DNA of 64,000 nt, taken from Thiotrichales bacterium (lineage in GTDB: Bacteria; Pseudomonadota; Gammaproteobacteria; UWMA-0217). How positions within the stretch are numbered: position 1 is the first letter of the stretch; every line of letters starts with the position of its first letter. The stretch spans positions 61,350 through 125,349 of the forward strand of contig JBHJOI010000032.1 in the NCBI GenBank assembly GCA_050329935.1. The letters are read 5' to 3'. Shown piece after piece: positions 44,335-53,300 of this stretch. A model generated the notes under the pieces. It worked only from the letters and a program-made list of their open reading frames with translations. It made no database searches and was not told the DNA's origin. The position numbers and the translations under genes were made by a program.

Positions 44335-47052
44335 ATGACTGAAGTCCCCCCACTGATTCTGGTCGACGGTTCGTCCTACCTATACCGTGCCTTTCATGCG
44401 TTGCCATCGCTAGCGACCGCCGACGGGCAGCCAACCGGTGCGGTGTACGGCGTGGTCAACATGGTGAAGAAGCTGATTCGCGAGTACCGGCCCACCCATA
44501 TGGCGGTGGTCTTCGATGCCAAGGGGAAGACTTTTCGCGATGCGATGTTTCCGCAGTACAAGGCAACCCGGCCGCCGATGCCCGATGAGCTCGTGTGCCA
44601 GGTCGAACCGCTGCATGAGCTGATCGCCGCGTTGGGTGTGCCTGTGCTGCTGGAGTCGGGCGTCGAGGCCGACGATGTCATCGCGACGCTGGCGTGCGAG
44701 GCCAGCGCGCAGGGCGTATCGGTACTGATTTCCACCGGCGACAAGGATCTCGCCCAGTTGGTCGATGGCAACGTGCGATTGATCAATACGATGACGGACG
44801 CGATGCTCGATCGCCAAGGCGTAATTGACAAGTTCGGGGTCGCGCCCGAGCAAATCGTCGACTATCTGGCGCTGATTGGCGACAAGGTCGACAACGTGCC
44901 TGGCGTGGATGGGGTGGGTCCCAAGACCGCGGCCAAGTGGCTGGAAACCTACGGTTCGCTGGATGCGATCGTGGCCCACGCGAGCGAATTCAAAGGCAAG
45001 ATCGGTGATAATCTCCGAGCGGCGCTTGCGCAACTGCCGTTGTCTCGCCAATTGGTGACTGTCGCGCTGGATCTCGAACTCGCACGGTCGCCGGCGGAGC
45101 TCGTGTTGCAACCGCCCGATGTCGGCCGCCTGCGTGCCTTATATCAACGGCTCGAGTTTCGAACCTGGCAGAAGGAGCTTGAAGCGGAGGTTGAGTCCGG
45201 CGATCCAGCTGATTCCGCGCTCCGACGCGGCGACGGTACCGATTATGGTCCCTATCCGACGATTCTCACCGCGGATGCGCTCGAAGACTGGATCGCACGC
45301 CTGGAGCAGGCGCAATTGTTCGCAATCGACACCGAAACCACGTCGCTGTCATACATCGACGCTCGTATCGTCGGGCTGTCGTTCGCGCTGGTTCCGGGCG
45401 ACGCGGCCTATCTGCCGTTGGCGCACGACTATCTCGGCGTGCCGGCGCAGCTCGACCGTGATGCAACCCTCGAGCGGCTGAGGCCACTGCTGGAGGATCC
45501 CGCACGCGGCAAGGTCGGGCACAACCTGAAATACGATCAGAGCGTATTGGCCAATCATGGCGTCGAGTTGGCGGGCATTCATCACGACACGATGCTCGAA
45601 TCCTACGTGTTGAATTCGACCGCGAGTCGGCACGATATGGACACGTTGAGTGAAAAGCACTTGCAACACACGACGATCCGGTTTGAGGACGTTGCGGGCA
45701 AAGGGAGTAAACAGAAGACCTTTAATCAAGTTCCGCTGGAAGCGGCGACGCCGTACGCCGCCGAGGACGCCGACGTCACGCTGCGTTTGCACCAGCATTT
45801 CTGGCCGCGATTGACCGAGGTAGATCGCCTGCGATCCTTGTATGAGCGAATAGAGATCCCCTTGATCGGTGTGCTATCGCGGATCGAGCGCAAAGGCGTG
45901 TGTGTCGACGCCGGTGCGTTGGCGCGGCAAAGCGTCGAACTGGCGCGCCGAATGGTCGAACTTGAGCGCGAGGCCTACAGTGAAGCCGGTGCCGAGTTCA
46001 ATCTTGGATCGCCGAAACAGCTCCAGGAAATCTTGTTCGAAAAATTACAGTTGCCGATCGTGAGCAAGACCCCAACCGGACAACCCTCGACGGCCGAAGA
46101 CGTGTTGCAGGAGCTGGCGGCGGACTATGCCCTCCCGCGCCTGGTGTTGGAACACCGTGGCTGCAGCAAACTCAAGTCGACCTATACCGATCGCTTGCCG
46201 CAACAGATCAACCCAAGCACCGGGCGGGTGCACACGTCCTACCATCAGGCCGTGGCATCGACCGGTAGGCTGTCGTCGTCCGATCCAAATCTACAGAACA
46301 TTCCGATTCGTACCGAGGAGGGGCGGCGAATCCGGCGAGCGTTTGTCGCGCCGGAGGGCTTTCGAATGATCGCGCTCGACTACTCGCAGATCGAGTTACG
46401 TATCATGGCCCATCTATCCGCCGACGAGGGACTGCTGCGCGCGTTTGCCGAGGGTCGCGACATCCATCGCGCGACAGCCGCGGAGGTTTTCGGAGTCGCC
46501 CCCGATGAGGTCGACGCGGAGCGTCGCCGTGCCGCCAAGGCGATCAACTTTGGTTTGATTTATGGCATGTCCGCGTTTGGCTTGGCGCGCCAGCTCGGGG
46601 TCGGGCGTAACGAGGCGCAGCAATACATCGATCTATACTTTTCGCGGTATCCGGGGGTGAAGCGATATATGGAGGACACGCGTACTCTCGCTCGAGAGCA
46701 AGGTTACGTGGAAACCCTGTTCGGACGCCGTTTGTTCGTGCCCGAGATCCGCTCGCGCAACAATCAGCGCCGCCAGTACGCCGAACGCACCGCGATCAAC
46801 GCACCGATGCAGGGAAGCGCCGCCGACATCATCAAGCGCGCGATGATCGAGACCGATGCCTGGCTGCAATCGTCCGCGGCGCCCGCGGCGATGATCATGC
46901 AGGTACATGACGAACTGGTGCTCGAGGCTGCGACCGATGCGGTGGAGCAAGTGACGCGCAAAGTCCGTGCCCTCATGCAGGACGTGGTCGAGTTACGCGT
47001 ACCGCTGGTGGTCGAGGCGGGAGTCGGTGCGAACTGGGACGAGGCGCATTAG
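44335..47052 (+). CDS. polA: DNA polymerase I
   Basis: 905 aa; 5'-3' exonuclease, 3'-5' exonuclease and polymerase domains (…RRAAKAINFGLIYG…). Confidence 0.97.
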   Translation: MTEVPPLILVDGSSYLYRAFHALPSLATADGQPTGAVYGVVNMVKKLIREYRPTHMAVVFDAKGKTFRDAMFPQYKATRPPMPDELVCQVEPLHELIAALGVPVLLESGVEADDVIATLACEASAQGVSVLISTGDKDLAQLVDGNVRLINTMTDAMLDRQGVIDKFGVAPEQIVDYLALIGDKVDNVPGVDGVGPKTAAKWLETYGSLDAIVAHASEFKGKIGDNLRAALAQLPLSRQLVTVALDLELARSPAELVLQPPDVGRLRALYQRLEFRTWQKELEAEVESGDPADSALRRGDGTDYGPYPTILTADALEDWIARLEQAQLFAIDTETTSLSYIDARIVGLSFALVPGDAAYLPLAHDYLGVPAQLDRDATLERLRPLLEDPARGKVGHNLKYDQSVLANHGVELAGIHHDTMLESYVLNSTASRHDMDTLSEKHLQHTTIRFEDVAGKGSKQKTFNQVPLEAATPYAAEDADVTLRLHQHFWPRLTEVDRLRSLYERIEIPLIGVLSRIERKGVCVDAGALARQSVELARRMVELEREAYSEAGAEFNLGSPKQLQEILFEKLQLPIVSKTPTGQPSTAEDVLQELAADYALPRLVLEHRGCSKLKSTYTDRLPQQINPSTGRVHTSYHQAVASTGRLSSSDPNLQNIPIRTEEGRRIRRAFVAPEGFRMIALDYSQIELRIMAHLSADEGLLRAFAEGRDIHRATAAEVFGVAPDEVDAERRRAAKAINFGLIYGMSAFGLARQLGVGRNEAQQYIDLYFSRYPGVKRYMEDTRTLAREQGYVETLFGRRLFVPEIRSRNNQRRQYAERTAINAPMQGSAADIIKRAMIETDAWLQSSAAPAAMIMQVHDELVLEAATDAVEQVTRKVRALMQDVVELRVPLVVEAGVGANWDEAH

Positions 47053-47379
47053 GGTAGGGCAGTCGCCAATCAAGTGACCGCGCGGACTACGCGCCATAAC
47101 GCGCAGCGCGGTGCTCCGGACGTCTGTCGGGCTACCCCCGTTTGATTATTGCTCCTTCGGGTTCATAGGCGGATGGTTAAGCAATCGTGCGGCGCGTGGA
47201 CCGCGGCCGTGTCGCGATTTCGAAAGAACAGGTCGCCGCGTTACTTGGGCACTCTCAAGCCGAGCCGCGAACATGTCCGTGGAACCACGACGCGAATTCG
47301 ATTCCGACAAACACATTGAATCTGGCGACCAACGGCAGCGAAAATTTTGTGAGCTGGTTCCTTGTGTTCAATTTTGAAC

Positions 47380-47408
47380 TTCAAATGGAACCAAAGTTGT
47401 GGTATTCT
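47380..47408 (+). promoter_or_regulatory. candidate sigma70 promoter (TTCAAA-17-TGgTATTCT, extended -10)
   Basis: Drives the structured RNA candidate; predicted TSS near 47415. Confidence 0.4.
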
Positions 47409-47414
47409 CTCTAA

Positions 47415-47531
47415 CGCAATAAGCGCTTAAGCCCAGCGCTTCCCGCTATCCTCCCTGAGCGGGATGGCCCGAATCCCCAAGTCGGGCCGCAAAATTACCC
47501 CGGCCGCCTTAGGCCGGGGACTTTTCTTCCG
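47415..47531 (+). ncRNA. candidate structured sRNA (about 117 nt) in the polA-engB gap (Spot42/ErsA syntenic position)
   Basis: Four consecutive hairpins: aagcgc/gcgctt (47421-47441), cccgct/agcggg (47442-47463), ggcccga/tcgggcc (47466-47488), and the terminator ccccggcc/ggccgggg plus T-tract (47498-47531). No convincing ORF. Confidence 0.45.
47498..47531 (+). terminator. rho-independent terminator (plus strand) overlapping the engB 3' end
   Basis: 8-bp GC stem, 6-nt loop, then ACTTTTCTTCC. The engB stop TAA lies in the loop, and the T-tract encodes the engB C-terminus EEKS on the opposite strand. Confidence 0.7.
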
Positions 47532-48126
47532 AATCCAGCCAGCCATTCAGTTTCGCGATCACCTCGTCCAGCCCGGCGCCATTGCTGGCGGAAAACACTT
47601 GCACAGTTGCGTTTAGTCTCATGTCCGCCAGCTTCCGCCGAACCTCGAGTAGTGTCGCCTGCTGTGCGCCGCGTCCCAGCTTGTCGGCTTTGTTCAGTAA
47701 GACATGCACGGGCAAGGCGCGCGCGTCGCACCAGGCGAGCATTTGCTGATCCAGCGCGGTGAGCGGGTGGCGCACGTCCATGATCAAAAGCAGGCCACGG
47801 AGTGATTCCCTGCGAGTGAGGTACTCTTCCATCAATCGTTCCCATTTCAGCCTGACTTCTTCTGGCACCTTGGCGAAGCCGTAGCCAGGCAGATCCACTA
47901 AGAACGCACCGGAGGGCAGCGAGAAATAATTGATTTGTTGCGTGCGGCCGGGCGTTTTGCTGACCCGTGCAAGTTGGCGCCGCTGGCAGAGGCGATTGAG
48001 GGTGCTCGATTTGCCGGAATTCGAGCGTCCGGCCACGGCGACCTCGGGTCCGGTGGCGGCGGGGAATTGGCGCGAATGCGCGCAACTCAAAACAAATGTG
48101 GCTGCGTTGTAGTTCTGCATGATCAA
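47509..48126 (-). CDS. engB: ribosome biogenesis GTP-binding protein EngB (YihA/YsxC)
   Basis: GRSNSGKSSTLN G1 motif; 205 aa; divergent from cytochrome c4 as in Pseudomonas. Confidence 0.9.
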   Translation of the reverse strand: MIMQNYNAATFVLSCAHSRQFPAATGPEVAVAGRSNSGKSSTLNRLCQRRQLARVSKTPGRTQQINYFSLPSGAFLVDLPGYGFAKVPEEVRLKWERLMEEYLTRRESLRGLLLIMDVRHPLTALDQQMLAWCDARALPVHVLLNKADKLGRGAQQATLLEVRRKLADMRLNATVQVFSASNGAGLDEVIAKLNGWLDSEEKSPA

Positions 48127-52898: not shown

Positions 52899-53160
52899 AG
52901 GTGTGACTCCGGTGGGTTGTGCCCACCGCACAACCTGGATCGTACAACGCCATCGGTCGTGCCGACGGCGGCCTGCCACAGGCCGGTCTCCGGACTCGCG
53001 AGTGAGTCTAGACTCCACTTCGGCGCCTTCCCATGCCTTGGGGCACAGTGGCGTAAGGCCGAAGTCAAACTCGCTTACCGTTGCGGGGGCAGTGCCGGGA
53101 TTGCGTACGAACGCGCACCGGCTTCCCGTTTAACCATAAACCGGACAATCCGGTACGGCA
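52899..53160 (-). promoter_or_regulatory. cobalamin (B12) riboswitch plus expression platform in the btuB leader
   Basis: Minus sense: ...GGTTAAACGGGAAGCCGGTG...AATCCCGGCACTGCCCCCGCAACGGTAAG...CGCCACTGTGCC (B12 box)...TGGGAAGGCGCC... Then alternative hairpins ggttgtgc/gcacaacc versus ggtggg/cccacc next to the SD GGAG. Confidence 0.8.
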
Positions 53161-53300
53161 CCTGCTGGCGATGCGCAGAGTAGCGGGATCGATGATTGTT
53201 GGTCAATGTCGATCGTCAAGGGCCGTCGAGAATCGCTTTGATGGGCGCTGAGCCGTGTCACCTGCGTGTCGCGGCAACAGTCAGTCGACTGACGTTTCGA

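What the first reader, a model, noticed from the sequence alone, without database searches (positions are those of the whole stretch)
47380..47531. Four-hairpin small RNA candidate between polA and engB (Spot42/ErsA syntenic slot)
The 445-bp polA-engB gap has no credible ORF. It contains a sigma70-like promoter (TTCAAA-17-TGgTATTCT) followed by about 117 nt that folds into three perfect 6-7-bp hairpins with C-rich loops (aagcgc-ttaagccca-gcgctt; cccgct-atcctccctg-agcggg; ggcccga-atccccaag-tcgggcc) and a strong intrinsic terminator. In E. coli, Vibrio and Pseudomonas the polA-engB spacer encodes the Spot42/ErsA sRNA. The sequence here does not resemble Spot42, so this may be a lineage-specific sRNA occupying the same conserved slot.
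Basis: partly seen in the sequence, partly recalled or inferred. Interest (0 to 1): 0.6.

Follow-up and report, generated by a model that had tools for sequence, protein, structure and literature searches.

The report
Known-family small RNA beside engB
The four-hairpin element between polA and engB is very likely a real small regulatory RNA gene, but it is an outlying member of the already catalogued anti-hemB/ncS04 family, not a lineage-specific novelty.

Summary
Window 47415/47421-47529 (+) folds into three hairpins with C-rich loops plus a terminator (z = -4.3).

It is not lineage-specific. Rfam assigns 47440-47528 to anti-hemB (RF02837, = Burkholderia cenocepacia ncS04) at 51.2 bits against a gathering score of 49.5.

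Comparison with about 200 loci shows:
- The RNA is convergent with engB in beta- and gammaproteobacteria. hemB (beta) or polA (gamma) lies on the other side.
- A four-hairpin model matches every family locus. Helices 1, 3 and 4 covary, and G-U outnumbers A-C 118 to 17, which gives the strand.
- In eight genomes of the window's clade (EngB 61-84% identical) the RNA body is invariant while the flanks cannot be aligned.
The window also carries GGAACC-N17-TCTAA, the sigmaE-type motif found in 49 of 67 engB-adjacent relatives.
- One locus bridges anti-hemB and Xanthomonas sX13.

The likely mechanism is inferred, not shown: a trans-acting RNA whose C-rich loops mask Shine-Dalgarno regions.

Verdict: a new member of a known kind, of moderate-to-low interest.

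The parts
47348..47364 (+). Conserved upstream box TGTGA-N5-TTCCTTG. Probably a regulator binding site; the factor is unknown.
   Evidence: Invariant in all 8 genomes of the window's clade while the N5 spacer varies. It occurs once per locus, only in this clade, and nowhere else in the window.
47380..47408 (+). Sigma-70-type promoter: -35 TTCAAA (47380-47385), 17-nt spacer, extended -10 TGg-TATTCT (47400-47408). Predicted TSS about 47415.
   Evidence: Read from the sequence. It falls below the scanner's threshold. TTGnnn-N16/17-(TGn)TAnnnT is kept at the same position in 8 of 8 related genomes although the surrounding bases differ.
47387..47414 (+). Overlapping sigmaE/ECF-type motif: GGAACC (47387-47392), N17, TCTAA (47410-47414). 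Predicted TSS about 47420-47421.
   Evidence: GGAAC(T/C)-N16-18-TCnnA lies at this distance from hairpin 2 in 49 of 67 engB-adjacent family loci, against 0.008 expected per 29-nt stretch. The same holds for most hits in an unbiased engB sample. Within the window's own clade it is kept only in WIN and L204, and partly in L202 and L206.
47415..47529 (+). Predicted sRNA transcript of about 108-115 nt, depending on which TSS is used.
   Evidence: Rfam anti-hemB at 47440-47528, 51.2 bits against GA 49.5. Own four-hairpin model R1 at 47416-47530, 47.1 bits, E = 8e-10, the only hit in the 64-kb window.
47421..47441 (+). Hairpin 1 (AAGCGC / GCGCUU, loop UUAAGCCCA). It lies outside the 81-nt Rfam model.
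   Evidence: Fold. All 6 pairs of this helix show compensatory changes across 100 loci. Sequence-invariant within the clade.
47441..47464 (+). Hairpin 2 (UCCCGCU / AGCGGGA) with the anti-Shine-Dalgarno loop AUCCUCCCUG. This is the family signature.
   Evidence: In a sample not selected on this motif the stem covaries (for example CCTGCTC/GAGCAGG, CCGTTC/GAACGG, TCCGGTC/GACCGGA) while the CCUCC(C) core of the loop is kept.
47466..47488 (+). Hairpin 3 (GGCCCGA / UCGGGCC) with loop AAUCCCCAAG.
   Evidence: There is a compensatory C>U / G>A change in L203, L205 and L207. All 7 pairs of the helix covary across 100 loci. The loop core UCCCCAAG equals loop 2 of the Rfam sX13 consensus.
47498..47529 (+). 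Intrinsic terminator: 8 G-C pairs, loop GCCUUA, tail ACUUUUCUU. It is shared back-to-back with engB.
   Evidence: Terminator scan on both strands. All 8 pairs covary across 100 loci. The engB stop codon at 47509-47511 lies in the loop.
47509..48126 (-). engB (yihA/ysxC), the conserved convergent neighbour that anchors the sRNA locus.
   Evidence: TIGR03598 at 230.7 bits against a cut-off of 124. In 67 engB-adjacent loci the sRNA is always convergent with engB.
44335..47052 (+). polA, the upstream neighbour in gamma-type lineages. In beta-type lineages hemB takes this place.
   Evidence: Pfam DNA_pol_A and exonuclease domains. polA lies upstream in 16 gamma-type loci. hemB lies there in L076 and L040.

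Best explanation
This is an independently transcribed small regulatory RNA gene of about 110 nt. It is a peripheral member of the anti-hemB/ncS04 family (Rfam RF02837). The defining genomic anchor of that family is the 3' end of engB, not hemB.

Transcription starts at about 47415-47421. It starts from a sigma-70 promoter with an extended -10, possibly also from an overlapping sigmaE-type promoter inherited from the family ancestor. A conserved box for an unknown factor lies upstream. Transcription stops at the terminator shared with engB.

The RNA folds into three hairpins that display C-rich apical loops: GCCCA, CCUCCC and CCCC.

Inferred, not shown: these loops pair in trans with G-rich Shine-Dalgarno regions of target mRNAs and block translation initiation. 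This was demonstrated for Xanthomonas sX13 and proposed for the CU-rich sRNAs of B. cenocepacia. Hfq probably assists, because ncS04 binds Hfq.
For: Shown here:
- Rfam hit above the gathering score.
- A four-hairpin covariance model matches every one of 100 sources (99 family loci plus the window) full-length and exactly once, the window at E = 8e-10.
- 97.1% of cells are paired, with 546 compensatory cells against 139 in shuffles. Slid controls give 33-50% paired.
- G-U outnumbers A-C 118 to 17, so the + strand is the RNA strand.
- The RNA is always convergent with engB.
- In the clade alignment A6 (8 genomes, EngB 61-84% identical) the RNA body is invariant, has a compensatory change in hairpin 3, and the flanks cannot be aligned.
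- Promoter elements are conserved.
- No conserved ORF.

From the literature:
- ncS04 is a 105-nt primary transcript seen by dRNA-seq, RACE and Northern blot, and it binds Hfq (PMC5688073).
- sX13 lies downstream of polA, is 115 nt long, has three C-rich loops, and represses mRNAs with G-rich motifs at the ribosome binding site (PMC3771888).
Against: - There are no expression data for this organism.
- No target was identified. Scans of the 64-kb window for loop complements showed no meaningful enrichment: none for loop 2 and a marginal, unexplained excess for loop 3, with no exact match at a start site.
- The Rfam score is only 1.7 bits above threshold.
- The stems of hairpins 1 and 2 are sequence-invariant in the clade. 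That is more constraint than pairing alone requires and could point to protein binding.
- ncS04 showed no regulation under any condition tested in B. cenocepacia, so the physiological role of the family is unknown.
- No terminator-like site was found between the polA stop and the sRNA in the stretch scanned (46900-47700). Some of the RNA could therefore arise from polA read-through.
Confidence: 0.62

Rival explanations
1. A protein-binding or decoy RNA. The invariant hairpins would be recognised by a protein, or would mimic the 16S rRNA anti-SD end to titrate a factor, rather than pairing with mRNAs.
For: Stem sequences of hairpins 1 and 2, not only their pairing, are invariant across genomes whose EngB is 61-84% identical. 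The hairpin-2 stem CCCGC/GCGGG is written in capitals, meaning highly conserved, in the Rfam consensus.
Against: In the sample not selected on the motif, the hairpin-2 stem does covary while the C-rich loop stays. That pattern is what is expected when the loop is the functional surface. The characterised analogue sX13 acts through its loops on mRNAs.
Confidence: 0.15
2. A cis-acting or antisense element that controls a neighbouring gene. A 2026 preprint proposes this for anti-hemB and hemB. Here the candidates would be engB, through the overlapping terminator, or polA.
For: The terminator overlaps the last codons of engB. The preprint 10.64898/2026.09.01.748597 argues for cis regulation of hemB.
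Against: - hemB is absent from this locus, and polA replaces it.
- Comamonadaceae copies lie away from engB.
- The distance from the end of hairpin 2 to engB ranges from about 40 to more than 1,600 nt, so overlap with engB is not conserved.
- The RNA is divergent from hemB in beta lineages, so it is not in the hemB mRNA.
Confidence: 0.07
3. Not a separate gene: merely the structured 3' UTR of polA together with a bidirectional terminator.
For: No terminator-like site was found between the polA stop and 47498 in the stretch scanned (46900-47700).
Against: - Conservation starts abruptly at hairpin 1, preceded by conserved promoter elements. The roughly 300 nt between polA and the upstream box match no other locus.
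- In beta lineages the upstream gene is divergent, and in L204 polA is not the neighbour at all, yet the RNA is kept.
- The Burkholderia homologue has a primary TSS.
Confidence: 0.04

Closest known systems
anti-hemB RNA motif / ncS04 of Burkholderia cenocepacia (Rfam RF02837; Weinberg 2007, Sass 2017)
   Same: - Covariance-model match above the gathering score.
- Identical signature hairpin CCCGC-(N)CCUCCCUG-GCGGG, followed by a second hairpin and a terminator.
- Similar length: 105 nt against about 110 nt.
- Convergent with engB.
   Different: - The host is a gammaproteobacterial MAG that NCBI labels Thiotrichales, not a betaproteobacterium.
- The upstream neighbour is polA, not hemB.
- The score is marginal: 51 bits against 77-84 for beta-type loci.
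- The hairpin-3 loop is UCCCCAAG.
- The terminator loop lacks the CCCCUU motif common in beta-type members.
sX13 of Xanthomonadaceae (Rfam RF02232; Schmidtke 2013)
   Same: - About 115 nt and encoded just downstream of polA.
- Successive stem-loops with C-rich apical loops.
- Loop 2 of the sX13 consensus (UCCCCAAG) equals the core of the window's hairpin-3 loop.
- Bridging loci exist. L169 scores 47.8 bits with sX13 and 25.3 with anti-hemB on one interval. L042 scores 50.9 with anti-hemB and 27.1 with sX13.
   Different: - No sX13 model match on the window itself at E <= 10.
- Pairwise similarity to the sX13 consensus is weak (z = 2.9).
- sX13 has an unstructured 5' region, and its first loop is CCCC rather than CCUCCC.
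- sX13 acts independently of Hfq.
ErsA of Pseudomonas aeruginosa
   Same: Same polA-engB intergenic slot. ErsA is driven by the envelope-stress sigma factor sigma-22/AlgU (PMC8575079). Most engB-adjacent relatives of the window RNA carry a sigmaE/AlgU-type motif, and so does the window.
   Different: ErsA is 132 nt and uses a U-rich single-stranded domain between SL1 and SL2, not C-rich loops. No ErsA sequence was available for a direct comparison.
Spot 42 (spf) of Enterobacterales and Vibrionales (Rfam RF00021)
   Same: Same polA-engB slot.
   Different: No covariance-model match at E <= 10. Spot 42 has a different architecture, with three single-stranded U-rich seed regions, and is controlled by CRP.

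Membership tests
anti-hemB / ncS04 (RF02837) | Match to the Rfam covariance model at or above the gathering score (49.5 bits) | tested here: met
   51.2 bits, model positions 1-81 of 81, window 47440-47528 (+). The margin is only 1.7 bits.
anti-hemB / ncS04 (RF02837) | Signature hairpin CCCGC...CCUCCCUG...GCGGG, followed by a second hairpin and a Rho-independent terminator | tested here: met
   The same architecture is found in 100 of 100 sources (99 family loci plus the window) with model R1, supported by covariation.
anti-hemB / ncS04 (RF02837) | Transcribed from the strand opposite to hemB, that is, the 'anti-hemB' strand | tested here: met
   Strand inferred from 118 G-U against 17 A-C cells, from the U-tail and from the promoter side. 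It is the same strand relative to engB as in beta-type loci.
anti-hemB / ncS04 (RF02837) | Located next to hemB | tested here: not met
   polA is upstream and engB downstream. Across 67 loci the invariant neighbour is engB, and hemB is the other neighbour only in beta lineages. This feature therefore describes the first-found members rather than the family.
anti-hemB / ncS04 (RF02837) | Betaproteobacterial host | tested here: not met
   NCBI names the identical EngB as coming from a 'MAG: Thiotrichales bacterium'. The nearest genome loci are gammaproteobacterial MAGs. Even so, 8 of 16 such polA-engB loci pass the Rfam threshold.
anti-hemB / ncS04 (RF02837) | Expressed as a discrete primary transcript of about 105 nt that binds Hfq | not testable with these tools
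   Known only for B. cenocepacia J2315 (PMC5688073).
sX13 (RF02232) | Match to the Rfam covariance model (gathering score 50 bits) | tested here: not met
   No sX13 hit on window 47380-47540 at E <= 10. Relatives L169, L042 and L092 reach 47.8, 27.1 and 25.7 bits.
sX13 (RF02232) | Encoded directly downstream of polA; about 115 nt; three stem-loops with 4C/5C apical motifs | tested here: met
   The loops contain CCC, CCUCCC and CCCC. The family definition comes from PMC3771888.
Spot 42 (RF00021) | Match to the covariance model | tested here: not met
   No hit at E <= 10. Only the synteny is shared.
ErsA | Sigma-22/AlgU-dependent promoter in the polA-engB spacer | tested here: inconclusive
   GGAACC-N17-TCTAA is present, but it is kept in only part of the window's clade. 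A sigma-70-type promoter is kept in 8 of 8 genomes.
ErsA | Sequence or structure similarity to ErsA (SL1, U-rich domain, SL2, SL3) | not tested

The most novel reading that the evidence does not exclude
anti-hemB/ncS04 (beta), sX13 (Xanthomonadaceae) and the engB-convergent C-rich-loop sRNAs of many other gammaproteobacteria, including this one, are a single ancient sRNA gene family.

The family is anchored at the 3' end of engB. It was ancestrally driven by a sigmaE-type envelope-stress promoter, which was later swapped for sigma-70 promoters in some lineages (Comamonadaceae, the window's clade). ErsA, and conceivably Spot 42, may be further divergent occupants of the same locus.

Rfam lists the two families without a clan. 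No paper in the searchable library mentions them together.
Probability: 0.4. Interest if true: 0.55.

Novelty: new member of a known kind. Interest (0 to 1): 0.33.

Why it matters
For this window it turns an unannotated 456-bp gap into an annotatable sRNA gene with defined ends, strand and promoter candidates.

More broadly, four points correct or extend how the family is described:
- engB, not hemB, is the conserved neighbour, which argues against the recently proposed cis regulation of hemB.
- The Rfam model lacks a covarying 5' hairpin.
- The family reaches deep into Gammaproteobacteria, with members at or just under the Rfam threshold.
- Most engB-adjacent members carry a sigmaE-type promoter motif.

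If the bridge to sX13 holds, the experimentally established sX13 mechanism could be transferred to a much larger group of bacteria. The polA-engB 'sRNA slot' would then reflect descent rather than coincidence.

Tried and rejected
1. Target search inside the window:
- Exact and 1-mismatch complements of loop 2 (CAGGGAGGA): 8 matches against 9.9 expected. The only exact match lies inside a TonB-receptor coding region.
- Loop 3 complement: 16 matches against 10.3 expected. None was exact apart from the RNA's own copy, and the positions were not checked against start codons.
- RNAduplex of the whole sRNA, or of the loops, against 54 crude translation-start regions gave no outlier. The whole-RNA version ignores intramolecular structure and is meaningless.

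2. Coding potential: the ORFs in the gap (88, 75, 56, 50 and 39 aa) have no conserved homologue. The weak hits only mirror nucleotide conservation of the RNA itself.

3. Purely sigmaE-dependent promoter: I favoured this after the family-wide count. I had to retract it for the window's own clade, where only a sigma-70-type promoter is kept in all 8 genomes.

4. The MAFFT/RNAalifold consensus on the raw alignment recovered only hairpins 1 and 2, because hairpin 3 and the terminator were out of register. This was solved with a covariance-model alignment.

5. Invariance of hairpin 2 in the first 100 loci is an artefact of the search pattern used to find them. It was not used as evidence.

6. TGTGA-N5-TTCCTTG as a CRP site: only the left half fits, and there are no further copies from which to define a regulon.

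7. The look-up of a Thiothrix EngB contig failed.

Full report
**1. The observation**

Window 47410-47531 folds into three hairpins and a terminator:
- Hairpin 1: 47421/22-47440/41, loop UUAAGCCCA.
- Hairpin 2: 47441-47464, loop AUCCUCCCUG.
- Hairpin 3: 47466-47488, loop AAUCCCCAAG.
- Terminator: 8 G-C pairs at 47498-47519, followed by ACUUUUCUU.

The MFE is -53.4 kcal/mol. Dinucleotide shuffles give -37.9 +/- 3.6 (z = -4.26), and none of 200 folds as well. The terminator scan reports the last hairpin on both strands.

The neighbours are these:
- polA at 44335-47052 (+).
- engB/yihA at 47509-48126 (-), confirmed by TIGR03598 at 230.7 bits against a cut-off of 124.
- A dihaem cytochrome c gene and dsbA beyond engB.

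The engB stop codon lies in the terminator loop, so the gap is 456 bp. None of the small ORFs in the gap is conserved in the loci held at that point (L001-L201). The window is part of a stromatolite metagenome contig. NCBI labels the identical EngB 'MAG: Thiotrichales bacterium'.

**2. What it is**

A scan of the whole window against Rfam at gathering thresholds gave two hits. One is anti-hemB (RF02837, 'Burkholderia RNA 7') at 47440-47528 (+), with 51.2 bits against a gathering score of 49.5 and the full model matched. The model starts at hairpin 2, so hairpin 1 lies outside it.

The literature on this family:
- anti-hemB was predicted by Weinberg et al. 2007 as a probable non-coding RNA ending in a terminator, found in betaproteobacteria (PMC1950547).
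- It is ncS04 of B. cenocepacia J2315, a 105-nt transcript mapped by dRNA-seq and RACE, seen on Northern blots, and reported to bind Hfq (PMC5688073).
- It did not respond to any condition tested there.

**3. Comparative evidence from genomes**

About 107 of them have the full architecture.

The hosts are:
- Burkholderiales in the broad sense, Rhodocyclaceae, Methylophilaceae and Gallionellaceae.
- Gammaproteobacteria: Steroidobacteraceae, Immundisolibacter, Rudaea and unclassified MAGs.

In 67 loci the RNA is immediately followed by a convergent engB and then by the cytochrome c gene. polA lies upstream in 16 gamma-type loci, as in the window. In beta-type loci the upstream, divergent gene is hemB (ALAD domain). 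The conserved anchor is therefore engB, and 'anti-hemB' describes only the beta context. Comamonadaceae copies lie elsewhere in the genome.

**4. Structure and strand**

I built a covariance model with all four hairpins from 23 beta-type sequences. It found exactly one full-length hit in each of 100 sources. In the window the hit is 47416-47530, 47.1 bits, E = 8e-10, with no second copy in 64 kb.

On the resulting alignment:
- 97.1% of cells are paired, against 74% for shuffles and 33-50% for slid partners.
- 546 cells carry changes on both sides, against 139 in shuffles.
- Every pair of helices 1, 3 and 4 covaries.

This alignment is fitted to the model. However, hairpin 1 also covaries on a plain MAFFT alignment.

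Helix 2 never varies in this set, but that is forced by the search pattern. In a sample chosen only through EngB similarity, the helix-2 stem does change in a compensatory way while the CCUCC(C) core of the loop stays.

G-U pairs outnumber A-C oppositions 118 to 17. The structured strand is therefore the one convergent with engB.

**5. The window's own clade**

EngB relatives at 61-84% identity were traced to their contigs. Together with two metagenome loci they give 8 distinct genomes. In their alignment:
- The RNA body (window 47421-47488) is invariant, apart from the loop positions of hairpin 3 and a compensatory C>U/G>A pair in that hairpin.
- The terminator covaries.
- The flanking intergenic DNA cannot be aligned.

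In one of these genomes (L204) polA is no longer the neighbour, yet the RNA remains beside engB. This is strong purifying selection on a non-coding element.

**6. Promoter**

Family-wide, GGAAC(T/C)-N16-18-TCnnA lies at a fixed distance from hairpin 2 in 49 of 67 engB-adjacent loci. The expectation is 0.008 per 29-nt stretch. The motif is also present in most hits of the unbiased sample.

By established knowledge this is the RpoE/AlgU (ECF02) promoter type: GGAACTT-N16-TCAAA or TCTGA. The window has GGAACC-N17-TCTAA at the canonical position (47387-47414). This sigmaE-type motif in the family is absent from the papers I could search.

Within the window's own clade the picture differs:
- The sigmaE-type motif is kept only in the window and L204, and partly in L202 and L206.

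The TSS would be about 47415 for sigma-70 or 47420-47421 for sigmaE.

All 8 genomes also share an invariant box, TGTGA-N5-TTCCTTG (47348-47364). It is found nowhere else in the window or in the other loci. Its factor is unknown.

**7. Mechanism**

What is shown is structural: conserved hairpins that present C-rich loops, a terminator with a U tail, and promoter conservation.

What is inferred is the action: the loops, above all the anti-SD-like CCUCCC, pair with G-rich ribosome binding sites in trans. The closest characterised analogue is Xanthomonas sX13 (PMC3771888):
- 115 nt, encoded 175 bp downstream of polA.
- Three stem-loops with 4C/5C loops.
- It represses mRNAs with G-rich motifs at the start site.

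That paper already noted that the polA locus also encodes Spot 42 and the alpha-r7 RNAs. ErsA of Pseudomonas occupies polA-engB and depends on sigma-22 (PMC8575079).

I could not identify targets. Scans of the window were uninformative.

**8. Relation to sX13**

- The Rfam sX13 model does not hit the window at E <= 10.
- It does hit the engB-convergent RNA of L169 at 47.8 bits (gathering score 50), on an interval that also scores 25.3 bits with anti-hemB.
- It hits Rudaea L042 and L092 at 27.1 and 25.7 bits, where anti-hemB scores 50.9 and 54.5.
- Loop 2 of the sX13 consensus (UCCCCAAG) is the core of the window's hairpin-3 loop.
- Direct pairwise similarity of the window RNA to the sX13 consensus is weak (z = 2.9).

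This suggests one superfamily but does not prove it. Rfam lists no clan for either family, and no searchable paper names them together.

**9. Verdict**

This is a real and well-supported sRNA gene, but it belongs to a catalogued family and a routine Rfam scan would have annotated it. It is a new member of a known kind.

The wider observations are of moderate specialist interest:
- The engB anchor.
- The missing 5' hairpin in the Rfam model.
- The sigmaE-type motif and the promoter switching.
- The bridge to sX13.
- Tandem arrays in some lineages.

These observations come from the relatives rather than from the window element itself.

Noticed in passing
window 52964-53180 (-): Cobalamin riboswitch (RF00174, 109 bits) upstream of a TonB-dependent receptor gene, presumably a btuB-like transporter.
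   Followed up: no
L174 3117-3682 (-); also L191, L171, L139, L186: Two or three tandem copies of related C-rich-loop sRNA genes directly downstream of engB in some gammaproteobacterial metagenome contigs. The middle copy in L171 gets a sub-threshold alpha-r14 hit, 41.9 bits against GA 58.8.
   Followed up: partly
L169 2880-2997 (-): An engB-convergent sRNA that scores 47.8 bits with Rfam sX13 (GA 50) and 25.3 bits with anti-hemB on the same interval. It bridges two Rfam families that are not in a clan. The polA stop codon TGA forms part of its sigmaE-like -35 element TGAACTC.
   Followed up: partly
window 47348-47364 (+): TGTGA-N5-TTCCTTG is invariant in 8 related genomes while the N5 spacer varies freely. 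It occurs once per locus and nowhere else. The left half resembles a CRP half-site. The factor is unknown.
   Followed up: partly
L008, L032, L033, L037, L038, L081 and other Comamonadaceae loci: Copies of the same sRNA that are not adjacent to engB. They carry a TTGAAA-N17-TGtTAAATT sigma-70 promoter with extended -10 instead of the sigmaE-type motif. The locus and the promoter type changed together.
   Followed up: partly
L166, L180, L183, L184, L200 and many others among L122-L201: In an unbiased sample of 76 engB loci, only 25 have the sRNA at E <= 0.01. In the rest, polA abuts engB with almost no spacer, or an unrelated convergent protein gene fills the slot. The slot is therefore not universally occupied.
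   Followed up: no
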